A program made the position numbers. A stretch of 64,000 nt of DNA from Perna viridis (taxonomy: Eukaryota), in the NCBI GenBank assembly GCA_037379345.1, contig CM074512.1, positions 26,908,001 to 26,972,000 on the forward strand. Reading direction: 5' to 3'. Shown here in pieces: positions 1 to 6,000 of the stretch; positions within the stretch are counted from its first letter, which is position 1, and each line of letters begins with the position of its first letter.

Positions 1-3000
1 GGTCCTCCAACAGTAACTGTGGCTCAGCCATCTTACTCAGTCACTACTGGACAACAAGTGACCTTGGTCTGTACTGTGACCTCTAACTTGGCTATCAATA
101 ATGTCTACTGGCAGAGAAATGTTGGTGGTACCATAACAACCATCCAATCTAACACCAACACCAACAAATATAGTGGTAGTACTGTTAATGCACCATCCTT
201 AACCATCTCTAATGCTGCCCAGAGTGATGTTGGTACATATACCTGTTTTGCTACTAACAGTGTAGGAACTGGACAAAGTACAACGACCACTCTCAGTGTT
301 ACAGGAAGTATGTATTTTTGTCTCTTTTAATCTGGTAATAGAAATTGTGCCTTTGCAAAGACAAGTTACTTGTATATGTGTTTTGTCCCACCTTTGTTTT
401 TGCATGTTTTATATATGAGTTTGTCATTAACACATATAACACTATTTTACCACCAAACATGTTTTGTTTATAATTAAAGTTATTTTTTGCTGATGTTAAA
501 TAACTTGAAATATTAACATTTGTTGTATGATAATTGTCCTGCTATATACAAAAAAGTGTTTTAATGCTTCCTTTGTTATAGATGGATAGTTTGTTCATAT
601 GATCACTTTATTATAAGAATTACATCCTTGCCAGATAAATATAGCCAGCTTATGCTATAGATTCATGAAGTAATCAACATTGAGCTTAAATTGAATTTCA
701 ATGTTTTTAGCAGTAATATAAAGAATACCAGTAATAATGATAAAATGTTGTAAGAATTTAAAGAATCCTTTGCCAATAAACATTAGTATTTCAAGTCTGT
801 TAACAAAACTCTTGGTTGCCTTTCAAATCATGGTAGGTTTACTTATTGTATACTGATAAATTACTATGATCATCATTTAGATATTTTTTACAACTTATAG
901 AAATATTTGTATTTCTGTCCTTATTATATGCAAAATAATTTCCCACTTTAATATCTGGATAACTGATACATATTCCATCTTCATTAACCTCAGGTCCCCC
1001 AACAGTAACTGTGGCTCAGCCATCTTACTCAGTCACTACTGGACAACAAGTGACCTTGGTCTGTACTGTGACCTCTAACCTGGCTATCAATAATGTCTAC
1101 TGGCAGAGAAATGTTGGTGGTACCATAACAACCATCCAATCTAACACCAACACCAACAAATATAGTGGTAGTACTGTTAATGCACCATCCTTAACCATCT
1201 CTAATGCTGCCCAGAGTGATGTTGGTACATATACCTGTTTTGCTACTAACAGTGTAGGAACTGGACAAAGTACAACGACCACTCTCAGTGTTACAGGAAG
1301 TATGTATAATTTGGTTTGGTTAATAAGTTATAATGTATATCCAGAATTCTAGCAATATAGAGATGTCTTTTTGTTGTGTATCTTTGAGTATCATTTTGGT
1401 TTACACATCAGTTTTGTGATTGAATTCCAGTTTTGTACAGCTATTTGAGGATGCAGGTCATGATAATATACACAAATTGATGAATATAACTAAATGCATA
1501 GAAATAAAAGTGAAAATTTGTATACTTTTTAAATATGAATGAACTACTGTTTTGTTGTAGTTTGTATTTATTATCCTTCAAAAAAGAATTCATTTTTTAA
1601 TATAAAAGTAATTTTAAATAATTGAAAAAAAAACTTTCCCTGTTACATTAAAAAACATTTCCCACATTATTTTAGATCTTGATTAGCTGTAGGCAGACAA
1701 TGTTGTTTGTCCCTCTTCTGTGTTTGCTTCTTTTCCTTGTCTTTGTCTTTTATCTCTTGCAAAATAATAACATTCAACAAAATGGCAAAATTGTTTATAT
1801 TTTCTTGAGTAATTTAACTTTGTAAATGATGATAAAAATGTCGCACATAGTCCATCATTATTAAGTCTATATGTATGGAATGTGATTTGATTTCCTCATA
1901 TAAGGGGTGATTGTTAAATGTCAATCAAAGATCCCTTTGTTAGTGAAAGAAAACAAACTACGTATACAATTTGTAAGTAAAAATGAAAATAGGCATGGAT
2001 GTTAGTTGACAAAATTTTGGCTTATGTCATCTTAAAATTCAGTGTGCACTTTCTTCAGGTAATTAAAGGTGTGCTTCTGATTTACAGAAAAAAAACAAGC
2101 CGATGATCCAAACAGTCCAGATATATTTATTTATATGATTTGTTCTTTTTAACCTTGTCAAGCCTGAATTGAATGATAGTAAAATACTATATTTCAGTTA
2201 TTAATATAAATAAAGAAAATTTGTTGATTTGTAGAACCCTTTACATCACCTCTTTCAAATGAATTTAAGGATACTAGTAACTAAAAACAAAGGTTGCCTT
2301 CCATAGCTTGAGGGTCTTGTCTTTTTTGGTTTACCTAAACCACTGGCATAAAATTCTGTCTTGCTAATTTTTAGTACTCAGTTAATTTGCTTTTGCTGTC
2401 AGAAGCTTTCTTTAAGTAACCATTTATAGTTGGTAGTAATTAATAACTGACTTGCTTTAACTCATAATTTTTTTTTAAATATATTTATCACAAAATTTTG
2501 TAGCAATACCAGTAGTTAATGTACAACAAGCAACATACTCTGTTAACTCGGGACAGTCTGTAACATTGGTCTGTACTGTCACCTCAAACCTTGCTATAAA
2601 TAATGTCTACTGGCAGAGAAATGTTGGTGGTACCATAACAACCATCCAATCCACCACCAACACCAACAAATATAGTGGCAGTACTTCGTCTTCACCATCC
2701 CTAACCATCTTTAATGTTGCATCATCTGATTTGGGCACTTATACCTGTTTTGCCAGCAATATTGTTGGAACAGGACAAAGTAGTACCACTACATTAGTTA
2801 TTTCCTTTCCACCAACTGTTGTAATTCAGCAGTCATCATATTCTGTCAGTGCTGGTCAATCAGTGACCTTGGTCTGCACAGTAACATCAAGTCTTCAGAT
2901 ATCATCTGTGCAATGGCAGAGAAATTTTGGTGGTATCATAACAACCATTACATCCAACACAAATACCAACAAATATAGTGGCAGTACTACCAACATTCCA

Positions 3001-6000
3001 TCGTTGTCAATTTCAAACACTGACTCGAATGATGCTGGGCAATATACTTGTTATGCCTCTAACAGTGCTGGCACAGGCCAGAGTACCATAACAACTTTAA
3101 CAGTGTTGTTGCCTCCTTTAGTGAGTGTTCCCCAGTCATTTTATTCAATAACAACTGGCCAGGCTATAACCTTGACTTGTACTGTGACCTCTACCCTTCC
3201 TGTCAACAGTGTCTACTGGCAAAGAAATGTTGGTGGCACAATAACAACGATTACTTCTAACACCAACACTAATAAATATAGTGGCAGTTCAACAAACACA
3301 CCATCCCTAACAATCTTTAGTTCTAACTTCAATGATGCTGGCAGTTACACTTGTTTTGCTACTAACAGCGCTGGAACTGGGCGAAGCAACCCAACAACTC
3401 TTAGCGTAACTGGAAGTAGGTTTAGTAGCAGTATTTCATAATGTTACATGGTTCATGTTTATAAAAGTAGGTATGCAAGCTTTCATGCTTCCAACTTGAA
3501 TTATGTAATCCATGTATTTCATGTAACACGTGTAAGGAATTATAAGGAGAGTGAAAATGTTGATTATGTCAAAGAGACAACAAACCTGGCAGGATGAAAA
3601 ATGTCAAGGCCACTCATGGGTCTTCCATGAAATTCTTTGAAGACACATGAGTGACCTGGAGCTGACATTTTTGCTACTATTGTGGCAACAGAATAATCGC
3701 TTGAAAACTTTAAGGATGAAAGTGTAGAAAGAGCAATTTTTTTTCAGTATACATATAGAAAAATGTACAGCTAAAATCTATATTTCTGAAATTATGCAAA
3801 AGGAAAGGAAATTTAAAGGATAAGATTTTGAAAAATACTTTAAGAAATGAATTCTTCTTGTGAAAAATGCAGATATGTATACTTATATAATGAATTATTT
3901 AACATCTCCATACAAGCCTACTTAATGAACTGCTTTTAAAATATTATATATATGTTCTATTGAGCTAGCTATAGCTTTGTTCATTGCCCTTTTGTTCAGG
4001 AGTTGTGTAATCAAGGCTTTGTTCAGACTAAACTAATTTACTTTCCAATAATGATGCCCATTTTATTTTAAACCAATTTCAGACATTTCACAAGCACATA
4101 AAAAATAAAATATTTTGCAAATGTAACATTCGGGGAAAAATCCCTATGTTTTGTTACACTTCTACCATACACATTTTTTTGTGTTGTAATTATATTTTTG
4201 TTGTCTCATTTATTCACACTCTTAAGTTGGAACAGAGATTTGCTGGTGTTACTATAAATGATTCTTGTGATATATCTGGTTAATTTTTACCCCCTGTCTA
4301 CAGTAATATCAGTAAGCTAAAGGTTTTAATATTGCTTTTTTCAATTGTTTATGCATTTTATTGATCAATAAGTCTTCGATAGATATCATTTTTTGCTGAA
4401 ATAATTTTCAAGGAATATTGAGATATTTAGACAACTGTTTGCCTAAATTTTGATATTTTTAATAGCATAAGTTACAACAATACAATCGTAGCAATGCTTG
4501 GTTGACAAGTTTTCATACATATAACTTTTTAATTTTTTATAGGTCCACCCACAGTTACAGTAGCTCAGCCATCTTACTCTGCCACAACAGGACAACAAGT
4601 GACCTTGGTCTGTACTGTGACCTCTAACCTACTTGTCAATAATGTCTACTGGCAGAGAAATGTTGGTGGTACCATAACAACCATCCAATCTAACACCAAC
4701 ACCAACAAATATAGTGGAAGTACTGTTAATGCACCATCCTTAACCATCTCTAATGCTGCCCAGAGTGATGTTGGTACATATACCTGTTTTGCTACGAACA
4801 GTGTAGGAACTGGACAAAGTACAACGACCACTCTCAGTGTTACAGGAGGTATGGTTACTGCATTTTTTATATGAAATGATTTATCAGTTTGAAAAAAGTT
4901 TATCAAAGATTAATTTACATATTTAATCCAGTATTATTTTGACATGACATTACGACTCCAAAGATTTTTATTTTCAGTCGAAGATGAAATGATATAAAGT
5001 TTTGATTTTGTTCAGACTTCTTATAATTGACAAGGCAATAAAAACAAGTGAATGACACATATAAGTTTCAAAACAGCAATTATGGGTTAATTTATACATA
5101 ACAACAGAAGGTTCAGTCATCCTTAATTGTGCTCTCACACCAAATATTACTTTTTTTATAATTTGAGAGAAATTGGAGTGACATGTACAATGCTACAAAC
5201 AGGTACACTAAGACAGTACAGTGTTCACACAAACTGCCTTGTATAAGTAATGTGATTTATACCTGTTTACTGATGTGTAAGAATAGGAAAGAGTTCTGTT
5301 ATAATCATTAGTAGTAGTAGTAGGATTTATCTGCTTGCATTATTTTGGATATGATGTATAAAATTTGTCATTGAATTTCCATCTCGTGCCTTTTTGTTTG
5401 CCTTTTATTTTTTTTAGAATAGATCTGCATTTCCTTTACATTTCACGTAGTTTTAGAAGTCATTATGTTGTTATTTTCAGCCTCATAGATACTAATTGTA
5501 TTAAACAGATATTTTAGTTGGTAGTTGACAGCTAATGATATATATTTCTGGTTCCCTTTTATGGTATTAATAGAAATTAGTCTGTGATTATTTAAATAAA
5601 TCATTTTATCAAAAGCTAGAAAAATTTTTTCCATTACATGGCTTTCATTTCAGGTTCAGTATATAACAGTGAGAGAATGTGAAGCATAGACATTTTTTTG
5701 CCATTTTTGTAATTTTGTTGCACTTCAAGTATTTAATAACTGTAATTTCAGTTCCCCCTACAGTCACTATTCTCCAACCATCATATTCTGTCAATGTTGG
5801 AAACACCATAACTTTAGAATGTACTGTTACATCAACACTTCCTGTTACCTCTGTCCAGTGGCAGAGGAACATTGGTGGATCCATAACCACCATCACATCC
5901 ACTAGCAACACCAACAAATATGGTGGCAGTACTACCAGTATTCCTTCATTGACCATTAATTCAGCAGAACTTGGAGATAGTGGCAGTTACACATGTTTTG

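What the first reader, a model, noticed from the sequence alone, without database searches (positions are those of the whole stretch)
2..4848. Exons homogenised to near-identity while flanking introns are unrelated
Seen: exons 1 and 2 differ at 2 of 306 nt (both synonymous), yet similarity ends ~8 nt into the downstream introns. Exon 4 differs from exon 1 at only 2 sites over 4636-4847 but diverges in its first ~90 nt. A 53-nt patch (2599-2651) in exon 3 is identical to 97-149. Purifying selection does not preserve synonymous sites and simple recent duplication would copy introns. Inference: ongoing exon-limited gene conversion, possibly templated by spliced cDNA, i.e. concerted evolution of Ig modules.
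Basis: partly seen in the sequence, partly recalled or inferred. Interest (0 to 1): 0.72.

Follow-up and report, generated by a model that had tools for sequence, protein, structure and literature searches.

The report
Ig exons homogenised by gene conversion
In a giant mollusc gene made of about 44 immunoglobulin-domain exons, some neighbouring exons are almost identical although their introns share nothing, which is best explained by short copy-and-paste recombination between exons, a known process seen here very clearly.

Summary
Exons E1 (2-307) and E2 (994-1299) differ at 2 of 306 nt, both synonymous. Identity stops 8 nt into the introns. E4 is a mosaic: its 5' third has dS 0.53 and its 3' two-thirds dS 0.04. 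A maximal 53-nt exact patch links E3 to E1/E2/E4.

The contig is bivalve-like, not human. The exons belong to a + strand gene with about 44 Ig domains (2 to about 54705), mostly one 306-nt phase-1 exon per domain.

A second exon family (E7, E9-E13) shows the same mostly exon-limited similarity. Its tracts carry 35-49 nt of intron, and 392 nt in one pair. That points to a genomic-DNA template, not spliced cDNA.

Against a collinear 4924-aa relative (P0121, unnamed), all 23 distal domains are one-to-one counterparts. All 17 proximal domains resemble each other more than any P0121 domain.

Best reading: short-tract gene conversion between paralogous exons, stopped where intron homology ends, on top of exon-unit duplication. 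Two cautions:
- E1's upstream intron lies off the window, so a 992-nt tandem duplication cannot be excluded for E1/E2 alone.
- No reads or haplotypes could be checked.

This is a known kind of process and a clean new example.

The parts
2..307 (+). Exon E1, one Ig domain, phase 1-1, family A
   Evidence: tblastn/ORF map; Pfam Ig_3/I-set for the identical E2 peptide; 2 of 306 nt differ from E2
308..993 (.). Intron 1. Its first 8 nt are shared with intron 2; the rest is unrelated to introns 2-4
994..1299 (+). Exon E2, family A, protein identical to E1
   Evidence: dS to E1 0.027
1300..2503 (.). Intron 2, with no detectable homology to introns 1, 3 or 4
2504..3415 (+). Exon E3, three fused Ig domains (E3a 2504-2806, E3b 2807-3109, E3c 3110-3415). 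It is the only multi-domain exon among the 40 aligned units
   Evidence: single open frame with 3 Ig stretches
2599..2651 (+). 53-nt exact patch inside E3a, identical to 97-149, 1089-1141 and 4638-4690. Candidate micro-conversion tract
4543..4848 (+). Exon E4, family A, a mosaic. 4543-4635 is diverged (dS 0.53 to E1); 4636-4847 is near-identical (dS 0.04)
7713..16302 (+). Family B exons E7 7713-8018, E9 11433-11738, E10 12435-12740, E11 13915-14220, E12 14778-15083 and E13 15997-16302 (86-96% nt identity). The more diverged E8 (9360-9665) lies between them and E14 (16866-17171) just after
   Evidence: identity matrix; extent of homology; mosaic bins; dS 0.11-0.48
12741..13132 (.). Part of intron 10 homologous to intron 11 (14221-14622). 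This is the only long intron-intron homology in the first 22.5 kb and serves as the internal positive control
   Evidence: 406 columns at 86%; first 200 nt 195/200 identical
19692..46626 (+). Distal exons E16-E38 (23 Ig domains), each a one-to-one counterpart of domains D21-D43 of P0121. No sign of homogenisation
46797..49868 (+). Four further Ig-domain exons (about 46797-47051, 47424-47732, 49088-49336, 49599-49868)
54454..54705 (+). Last coding exon (cytoplasmic tail) ending in a stop. It matches the C-terminus of P0121. The transmembrane exon was not located
   Evidence: ORF list; tblastn 58% over 84 columns

Best explanation
The window holds most of a giant type-I membrane protein gene of a bivalve-like mollusc, built almost wholly of Ig-domain exons. 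In its N-terminal (proximal) part, paralogous exons exchange sequence by short-tract, non-reciprocal recombination templated on genomic DNA (intragenic ectopic gene conversion). Occasional duplication or loss of exon units adds to this.

The introns between old duplicates have diverged beyond recognition. Strand invasion and annealing can therefore only use exon sequence, so tracts start and stop inside exons or at their borders. The result is near-identical exons, identical even at synonymous sites, set in unrelated introns.

Shown: the mosaic structure, the synonymous-site identity, the absence of intron homology, the intron stubs inside some tracts, and the within-gene clustering of the proximal modules.

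Inferred: the recombination mechanism itself, its direction, and that it is still going on.
For: (1) dS is 0.027 for E1-E2 and 0.041 for E1-E4 codons 32-101, against 0.525 for E1-E4 codons 1-31, where 9 of 12 differing codons are synonymous. The protein is conserved across the whole exon, but synonymous sites are kept only inside the tract.

(2) Breakpoints are significant for E1-E4, E8-E13, E9-E10, E7-E9 and E10-E11 but not for three control pairs. Runs of matching polymorphic sites are significant for E3a vs family A, E8-E13, E9-E14 and E10-E14.

(3) Positive control: E10/E11 (dS 0.145) share 406 aligned intron columns at 86%, with 195/200 identical in the first 200 nt. Co-copied introns are therefore easy to detect. 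Yet homology ends 5-8 nt past the exon for E1-E2 (0.027), 35-41 nt for E11-E12 (0.108) and 6-17 nt for E7-E12 (0.184).

(4) Among 15 family-B pairs, downstream homology is <=17 nt in 9, 35-49 nt in 5 and 392 nt in 1. Upstream homology is <=15 nt in 14 and 41 nt in 1. The ends vary and sometimes lie in the intron, as expected for DNA-templated tracts.

(5) Against the collinear relative P0121: in 17 of 17 proximal units the best within-window identity exceeds the best identity to P0121. In 0 of 23 distal units does it do so. 23 of 23 distal units are reciprocal best matches in order (by blastp score 22 of 23 were collinear, with E24 the exception). In the tree, 6 of 6 distal control pairs join by position. 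E1/E2/E4 form their own clade (96/87) and E7-E14 a clade (81/88) beside the single D19.

(6) Between the two exon groups, codon identity at shared residues is 0.58-0.66 in the exon centre and 0.32-0.37 at three of the other bins (codons 1-30, 61-75, 91-101), but 0.54 at codons 76-90. It is flat at about 0.40 across the first four bins (through codon 60) of the distal exons. The central rise fits tracts that need homology on both sides.

(7) Exon-restricted conversion with introns too diverged to take part is described in print (PMC3966223 section 4.2, passages; PMC3728101, passages).
Against: - E1's upstream intron is off the window, so only one flank of the E1/E2 pair is seen.
- E1/E2 identity runs to the very last exon base and 8 nt beyond. 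A homology-limited tract does not easily reach that far, but the breakpoint of a duplication would.
- P0121 has one family-B-like domain (D19) where the window has eight or more. Duplication or loss of exons, not conversion alone, has therefore shaped the array.
- GC3 of the homogenised exons (0.29-0.36) is barely above that of the distal exons (0.22-0.36), so there is no clear GC-biased conversion signature.
- The column-permutation test is liberal: E3a vs family B runs of only 15-16 sites also came out at P<=0.0025, because slowly evolving columns cluster.
- P0121 is unnamed. It may be an orthologue in another species or an old paralogue.
- Only one assembly was available: no reads and no second haplotype.
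Confidence: 0.7

Rival explanations
1. E1/E2 are a very recent tandem duplication of a 992-nt unit (the end of the upstream intron, the exon, and 8 nt) with no conversion needed. Only E4 and the E3a patch would then be conversion products.
For: - The start-to-start spacing is 992 nt and identity ends sharply at 315/1307.
- Such a duplication predicts unrelated introns 1 and 2, as observed.
- P0121 carries 100% identical neighbouring domains (D4=D5, D14=D15) and a two-domain periodic pair (D10~D12, D11~D13 at 99%), which look like recent unit duplications.
- Exon copy number differs between the two genes.
Against: - The breakpoint would have to fall within 8 nt of the exon end by chance (roughly 1-2% of a 992-nt unit, my estimate).
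- The E4 tract ends at the same exon border.
- 9 of 15 family-B pairs end <=17 nt past the exon, which duplication breakpoints do not explain.
- E11/E12 are 864 nt apart but share only 382 nt.
Confidence: 0.15
2. Conversion is templated by reverse-transcribed spliced mRNA, which is why similarity stops at the splice sites.
For: - Family A similarity ends 5-8 nt past the donor site and 2 nt before the acceptor, and most of that is splice consensus.
- E3 is a fused three-domain exon in the middle of family A. The cDNA-recombination model of intron loss would produce such an exon (PMC2614967, abstract in a search listing only).
Against: - Family B tracts include 35-49, 392 and 41 nt of intron, which spliced cDNA cannot supply.
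- The first 51 nt of E5 are 69% identical to E2 and 55% to E3a, so no tract crosses an exon junction after E4.
- Both fused junctions in E3 are one codon shorter than a precise junction and lack the usual Gly-Ser.
- Breakpoints inside exons need no cDNA.
Confidence: 0.05
3. The near-identity is an assembly or polishing artefact: reads from similar exons were mixed during consensus building.
For: The three exons are short repeats within 5 kb. Only one assembly is available and no reads could be examined.
Against: - Each exon sits in unique intron sequence, which anchors long reads and read pairs.
- Two differences remain between E1 and E2.
- E4 keeps a sharply bounded diverged 5' third.
- The same pattern recurs in a second family with graded identities of 86-96%.
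- P0121, an independent record, also has 99-100% identical domains.
Confidence: 0.07
4. Selection on the nucleotide sequence itself (splicing enhancers, RNA structure, codon usage) keeps the synonymous sites identical.
For: The central 53 columns are unusually conserved between the exon families: 7 differences between families A and B, against a median of 12.
Against: - The 5' third of E4 encodes nearly the same protein with dS 0.53.
- Distal exons of the same gene show a flat, low codon identity of about 0.40.
- dS between most exons of the gene is 0.95-2.1.
Confidence: 0.03

Closest known systems
Exon-restricted inter-paralogue gene conversion: Tigriopus GOT1S paralogues (PMC3728101, passages read); rodent NKG2 ligand-binding exons (PMC3210942, passages read); mouse TCR C-beta exon 1 (PMC2188480, abstract read); general statement in PMC3966223 section 4.2 (passages read)
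   Same: Paralogous coding segments are homogenised, synonymous sites included, while the neighbouring introns are too diverged to align. The tracts are mosaic.
   Different: Here the partners are exons of a single gene (intragenic). There are many of them (at least 3 plus 6-8). They sit beside 23 exons of the same kind that do not take part.
Dscam arrays of duplicated Ig-coding exons in insects and crustaceans (PMC3236188, passages read)
   Same: Tandem arrays of paralogous exons coding for Ig domains or half-domains, separated by short introns.
   Different: Dscam exons are mutually exclusive alternatives, and GENECONV found no conversion (P 0.2 and 0.5). Here each exon adds one domain in series (phase 1-1, collinear with a 47-domain protein) and conversion signals are strong in the proximal part.
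Long-lasting concerted evolution of mammalian gene pairs BMP8A/B, DDX19A/B and TUBG1/2 (PMC2720389, passages read)
   Same: Mosaic homogenised segments, and paralogues closer within than between species.
   Different: Those tracts span introns and show raised GC. Here the tracts mostly stop at exon borders and GC3 is not clearly raised.
Proteins annotated hemicentin-1-like or perlecan-like in Mytilus, Pecten, Mizuhopecten and Argopecten (names given by the sources)
   Same: Long runs of about 100-aa I-set-type Ig domains with the same conserved motifs. Up to 62% identity to E3 over 303 aa, and single domains up to 77% to E1. Several also carry near-identical repeated domains.
   Different: The full-length relative P0121 has only Ig families in Pfam (47 Ig_3 stretches), plus a signal peptide, one hydrophobic span and a short tail. 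The von Willebrand A, EGF and fibulin-type modules of true hemicentin (recalled) are not found.

Membership tests
Concerted evolution by ectopic (non-allelic) gene conversion | Paralogous units are more alike within one gene or genome than to their counterparts in a related gene or genome | tested here: met
   True for 17 of 17 proximal units and 0 of 23 distal units; tree clades. Caveats: the comparison is at protein level only, and P0121 is unnamed (orthologue or old paralogue).
Concerted evolution by ectopic (non-allelic) gene conversion | Mosaic tracts with statistically supported breakpoints | tested here: met
   Maximum chi-square and run-length permutations, with non-significant control pairs.
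Concerted evolution by ectopic (non-allelic) gene conversion | Tract identity at neutral sites far above that of the flanking sequence | tested here: met
   dS 0.027-0.041 inside the tracts vs 0.525 beside them. Introns are unalignable, whereas E10/E11 introns align at 86%.
Concerted evolution by ectopic (non-allelic) gene conversion | Raised GC in converted segments (GC-biased conversion; common but not obligatory) | tested here: inconclusive
   GC3 is 0.29-0.36 in the homogenised exons vs 0.22-0.36 in the distal exons.
Concerted evolution by ectopic (non-allelic) gene conversion | Polymorphisms shared between paralogues, or events seen between haplotypes (shows the process is ongoing) | not testable with these tools
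   No reads, haplotypes or eukaryotic genome collection were available.
cDNA (retro-) templated conversion | Tracts never contain intron bases and may cross exon-exon junctions | tested here: not met
   Family B tracts carry 35-392 nt of intron. There is no co-conversion of the start of E5. For family A alone the test is inconclusive (5-8 nt, splice consensus).
Plain tandem segmental duplication | Homology covers the whole repeat period, intron included, at about the synonymous divergence | tested here: not met
   Not met for E2-E4, E11-E12, E7-E12 and most family-B pairs. Met in part for E10-E11. Inconclusive for E1-E2 because the upstream flank is off the window.
Hemicentin (the name given by sources to the relatives) | N-terminal von Willebrand A domain, and C-terminal EGF repeats plus a fibulin-type module (recalled definition) | tested here: not met
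   Pfam finds only Ig-type families in P0121 and in the window exons tested. P0121 ends in a hydrophobic span and a tail.

The most novel reading that the evidence does not exclude
The family-A exons (E1, E2, E4) could be homogenised exon-precisely from a spliced RNA or cDNA template in the germ line, with the neighbouring fused three-domain exon E3 as a footprint of the same activity. My data exclude this for family B but not for family A, where similarity ends within the splice-site consensus. A weaker variant is that the membrane-distal half of this giant Ig receptor is a zone kept variable in module number and sequence, while the membrane-proximal half is frozen.
Probability: 0.05. Interest if true: 0.8.

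Novelty: new member of a known kind. Interest (0 to 1): 0.38.

Why it matters
One gene contains its own control. Seventeen proximal Ig modules evolve in concert or turn over, while twenty-three distal modules of the same fold, size and exon phase have stayed one-to-one with their counterparts in a related gene.

That makes the locus a clean natural system for two questions: what lets conversion start and stop (homology thresholds, intron divergence, distance), and whether the membrane-distal end of a giant Ig receptor is under different pressures from its stalk.

In practice it warns annotators and phylogeneticists. Domain trees from such genes reflect homogenisation rather than history, and the name 'hemicentin-like' is misleading for this protein.

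Tried and rejected
- Semi-global alignment of 200-nt flanks with shuffles was a poor tool, because its free end gaps let short chance matches score. I kept only the strong results (E10-E11 z 117; E9-E10 and E9-E11 z 10-11) and relied on blastn instead.
- Column permutation of run lengths proved liberal, since even E3a vs family B came out 'significant'. I added an empirical comparison of the same columns and maximum chi-square tests with control pairs.
- GC3 as a sign of biased conversion showed no clear signal.
- Pfam found nothing in the ORFs at 51427-51879, 53933-54379, 54394-54705 and 60315-60536(-).
- tblastn with the end of P0121 did not locate the transmembrane exon.
- I judged the contig not to be human. 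GC is about 32% and the best named relatives are bivalve proteins.
Every search used one contiguous exon of the window, or whole database proteins.
- The genome-contig collection holds only bacteria and archaea, so it was not used.
- Still unchecked: the sequence upstream of the window, sister-species DNA, other haplotypes and reads. No supplementary files of papers were requested.

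
Full report
**What the window is.** The 64-kb window has no N and about 32% G+C throughout. A tblastn search with the peptide of the first exon finds 44 Ig-like segments, all on the + strand, from position 4 to about 49814.

Almost every segment is a separate exon with AG/GT borders and phase 1 at both ends. Most exons are 306 nt. The exception is 2504-3415, one open frame with three Ig domains. Pfam calls the domains Ig_3 / I-set.

The best named relatives of exon 2504-3415 are bivalve proteins from Mytilus, Pecten, Mizuhopecten and Argopecten. 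Their sources call them hemicentin-1-like or perlecan-like, and identity reaches at most 62%. I therefore take the contig for a bivalve-like mollusc, not for human.

Each search used one contiguous exon.

**Checking the observation.**
- E1 (2-307) and E2 (994-1299) differ at 2 of 306 nt, both synonymous.
- Identity continues through the first 8 intron bases, and then 14 of the next 25 positions differ.
- E4 (4543-4848) differs from E1 at 17 of 306 nt. Fourteen lie in the first 94 nt, two in 4636-4847, and one is the last base.
- The 53-nt patch 97-149 = 2599-2651 is exact and maximal.
- The four introns around these exons share only short scattered matches on either strand. None appears in self-blastn of the window at E<=1e-6 or in exon-masked blastn at E<=1e-3.

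Two corrections apply. 'Exon 3' is a three-domain exon. The intron upstream of E1 is outside the window, so E1/E2 can be compared on one side only.

**Is it more than chance?**
- Nei-Gojobori dS is 0.027 for E1-E2.
- For E1-E4, dS is 0.525 over codons 1-31 but 0.041 over codons 32-101. Both parts are conserved in protein (dN 0.063 and 0.000).
- A maximum chi-square test with permutation supports a breakpoint in E1-E4 (P 0.004 on all sites, <=0.0005 on third positions). Three control pairs of diverged exons give 0.87, 0.21 and 0.08.
- For the patch, the run of 34 matching polymorphic columns was never reached in 2000 column permutations.
- That run test is liberal, because slowly evolving columns cluster and even E3a vs family B scored. 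I therefore compared the same 53 columns across 118 inter-family exon pairs. The median is 12 differences, the minimum elsewhere is 2-4, and zero occurs only for E3a against E1/E2/E4.

**The same thing happens further along.**
- A nucleotide identity matrix of the first 17 domain units shows a second family: E7 and E9-E13 at 86-96%, with E8 and E14 more distant. Their dS values are 0.11-0.48.
- Among the 15 pairs of this family, homology runs <=17 nt past the donor site in 9, 35-49 nt in 5 and 392 nt in 1. Upstream it runs <=15 nt in 14 and 41 nt in 1.
- Identity along the exons is patchy. The first 51 nt of E9 are 71-73% identical to E7 and E10, while the rest is 88-100%. E8 and E13 are 88-96% alike in the 3' half and 69-80% in the 5' half. 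The breakpoints are significant.
- The pair E10/E11 is the internal control. Their downstream introns align over 406 columns at 86%, with 195 of 200 identical at the start. Co-copied intron is therefore plainly visible to these methods at dS 0.145.
- Its absence at dS 0.027 (E1-E2), 0.108 (E11-E12) and 0.184 (E7-E12) is thus real.

**Comparison with a related gene.** A search of the representative library with exon E3 returned P0121, a 4924-aa protein without a name.

- P0121 has a signal-peptide-like start, 47 Ig_3 stretches and no other kind of Pfam family. It has a hydrophobic span and a short tail.
- Its C-terminus matches window 54454-54699, which fixes the end of the gene near 54705. The transmembrane exon was not found.
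- Domain-by-domain global alignment gives a clean split.
- The 23 distal units E16-E38 are reciprocal best matches of D21-D43 in the same order. All are closer to their counterpart (63-83%) than to any other window unit (54-68%). By blastp score 22 of 23 were collinear, with E24 the exception.
- The 17 proximal units are all closer to another window unit than to any P0121 domain. E1, E2 and E4 all point to D16 (79-80%), and E5-E14 all point to D19 (69-78%).
- P0121 has its own near-identical sets: D4=D5 and D14=D15 at 100%, D10~D12 and D11~D13 at 99%.
- A maximum-likelihood tree agrees. Six of 6 distal control pairs join by position. E1/E2/E4 form a clade (96/87), nine P0121 domains form a clade (91/95), and E7-E14 form a clade (81/88) next to the single D19.
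- Whether P0121 is an orthologue or an old paralogue, the proximal modules were homogenised or multiplied separately in each gene, and the distal ones were not.

**Mechanism.** The best reading is short-tract gene conversion between paralogous exons, templated on genomic DNA. The tracts are bounded by the end of usable homology at the exon borders. This acts on an array whose copy number also changes by duplication or loss of exon units.

- The centre of the exon is the most exchanged part. Between the two exon groups, codon identity at shared residues is 0.58-0.66 for codons 31-60 and 0.32-0.37 at codons 1-30, 61-75 and 91-101, with a second rise to 0.54 at codons 76-90. Distal exons are flat at about 0.40 over codons 1-60.
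- Exon-restricted conversion, with introns too diverged to take part, is in print. Sources are PMC3966223 section 4.2, PMC3728101 and PMC3210942 (passages read) and PMC2188480 (abstract).
- By contrast, the Ig-exon arrays of Dscam show no conversion (PMC3236188, passages read).

**Rivals.**
- *A 992-nt tandem duplication.* It would also leave introns 1 and 2 unrelated, and it cannot be excluded for E1/E2, because it predicts homology between intron 1 and the unseen upstream intron. It explains neither E4, nor the patch, nor family B.
No tract crosses into E5. For family A it is untested, and the fused exon E3 is compatible with it but not specific.
- *An assembly artefact.* It is unlikely given the unique intron anchors, the sharp internal breakpoint and the independent record P0121. 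It is untestable here.
- *Selection on synonymous sites.* It is contradicted by the diverged 5' third of E4.

**Verdict.** This is a well-marked new example of a known process. Its main added interest is the sharp contrast, within one gene, between a proximal half that evolves in concert and a distal half that does not.

Noticed in passing
window 2504-3415: This is the only exon among the 40 aligned Ig units that holds three domains, so two introns are missing. Both internal junctions are one codon shorter than a normal exon-exon junction and lack the usual Gly-Ser.
   Followed up: partly
window 19281/19692 boundary; whole gene 2 to about 54705: There is a sharp change of evolutionary mode after E15. 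The proximal 17 units have no one-to-one counterpart in P0121. The distal 23 units are all one-to-one and collinear.
   Followed up: yes
P0121 (unnamed protein), residues about 335-646 and 957-1564: The relative has its own sets of 99-100% identical Ig domains, including a two-domain periodic pair (D10~D12, D11~D13). The same kind of turnover therefore goes on independently there. M. californianus P0003 and P. maximus P0001 also show alternating repeated domains.
   Followed up: partly
window 17723-18140: Tandem repeat of 90 nt x 4.5 copies (96% matches) inside the intron after E14.
   Followed up: no
window 24166-25392: Tandem repeat of 328 nt x 3.8 copies (82% matches) in the long intron between E18 and E19, with shorter repeats just upstream at 23891-24176.
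   Followed up: no
window 10744-10810 and 11108-11147: Two near-perfect palindromes (95-96%) in the intron between E8 and E9.
   Followed up: no
window 51427-51879 (+): 150-aa open frame in the intron before the last exon, with no Pfam match. From memory it resembles the C-terminal part of a non-LTR retrotransposon protein; this was not tested.
   Followed up: partly
window 60315-60536 (-): 73-aa open frame on the minus strand with two PPSY motifs and no Pfam match. It may be an exon of a neighbouring gene downstream of the Ig gene.
   Followed up: partly
window 58339-58541, 58665-58868, 62409-62527; also 9063-9112 vs 41618-41667 (inverted): Dispersed repeats at 85-88% identity, probably small mobile elements.
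   Followed up: no
window 49869-54453: The exon for the transmembrane span seen in P0121 was not found by tblastn. It may be too diverged or too short to detect.
   Followed up: partly
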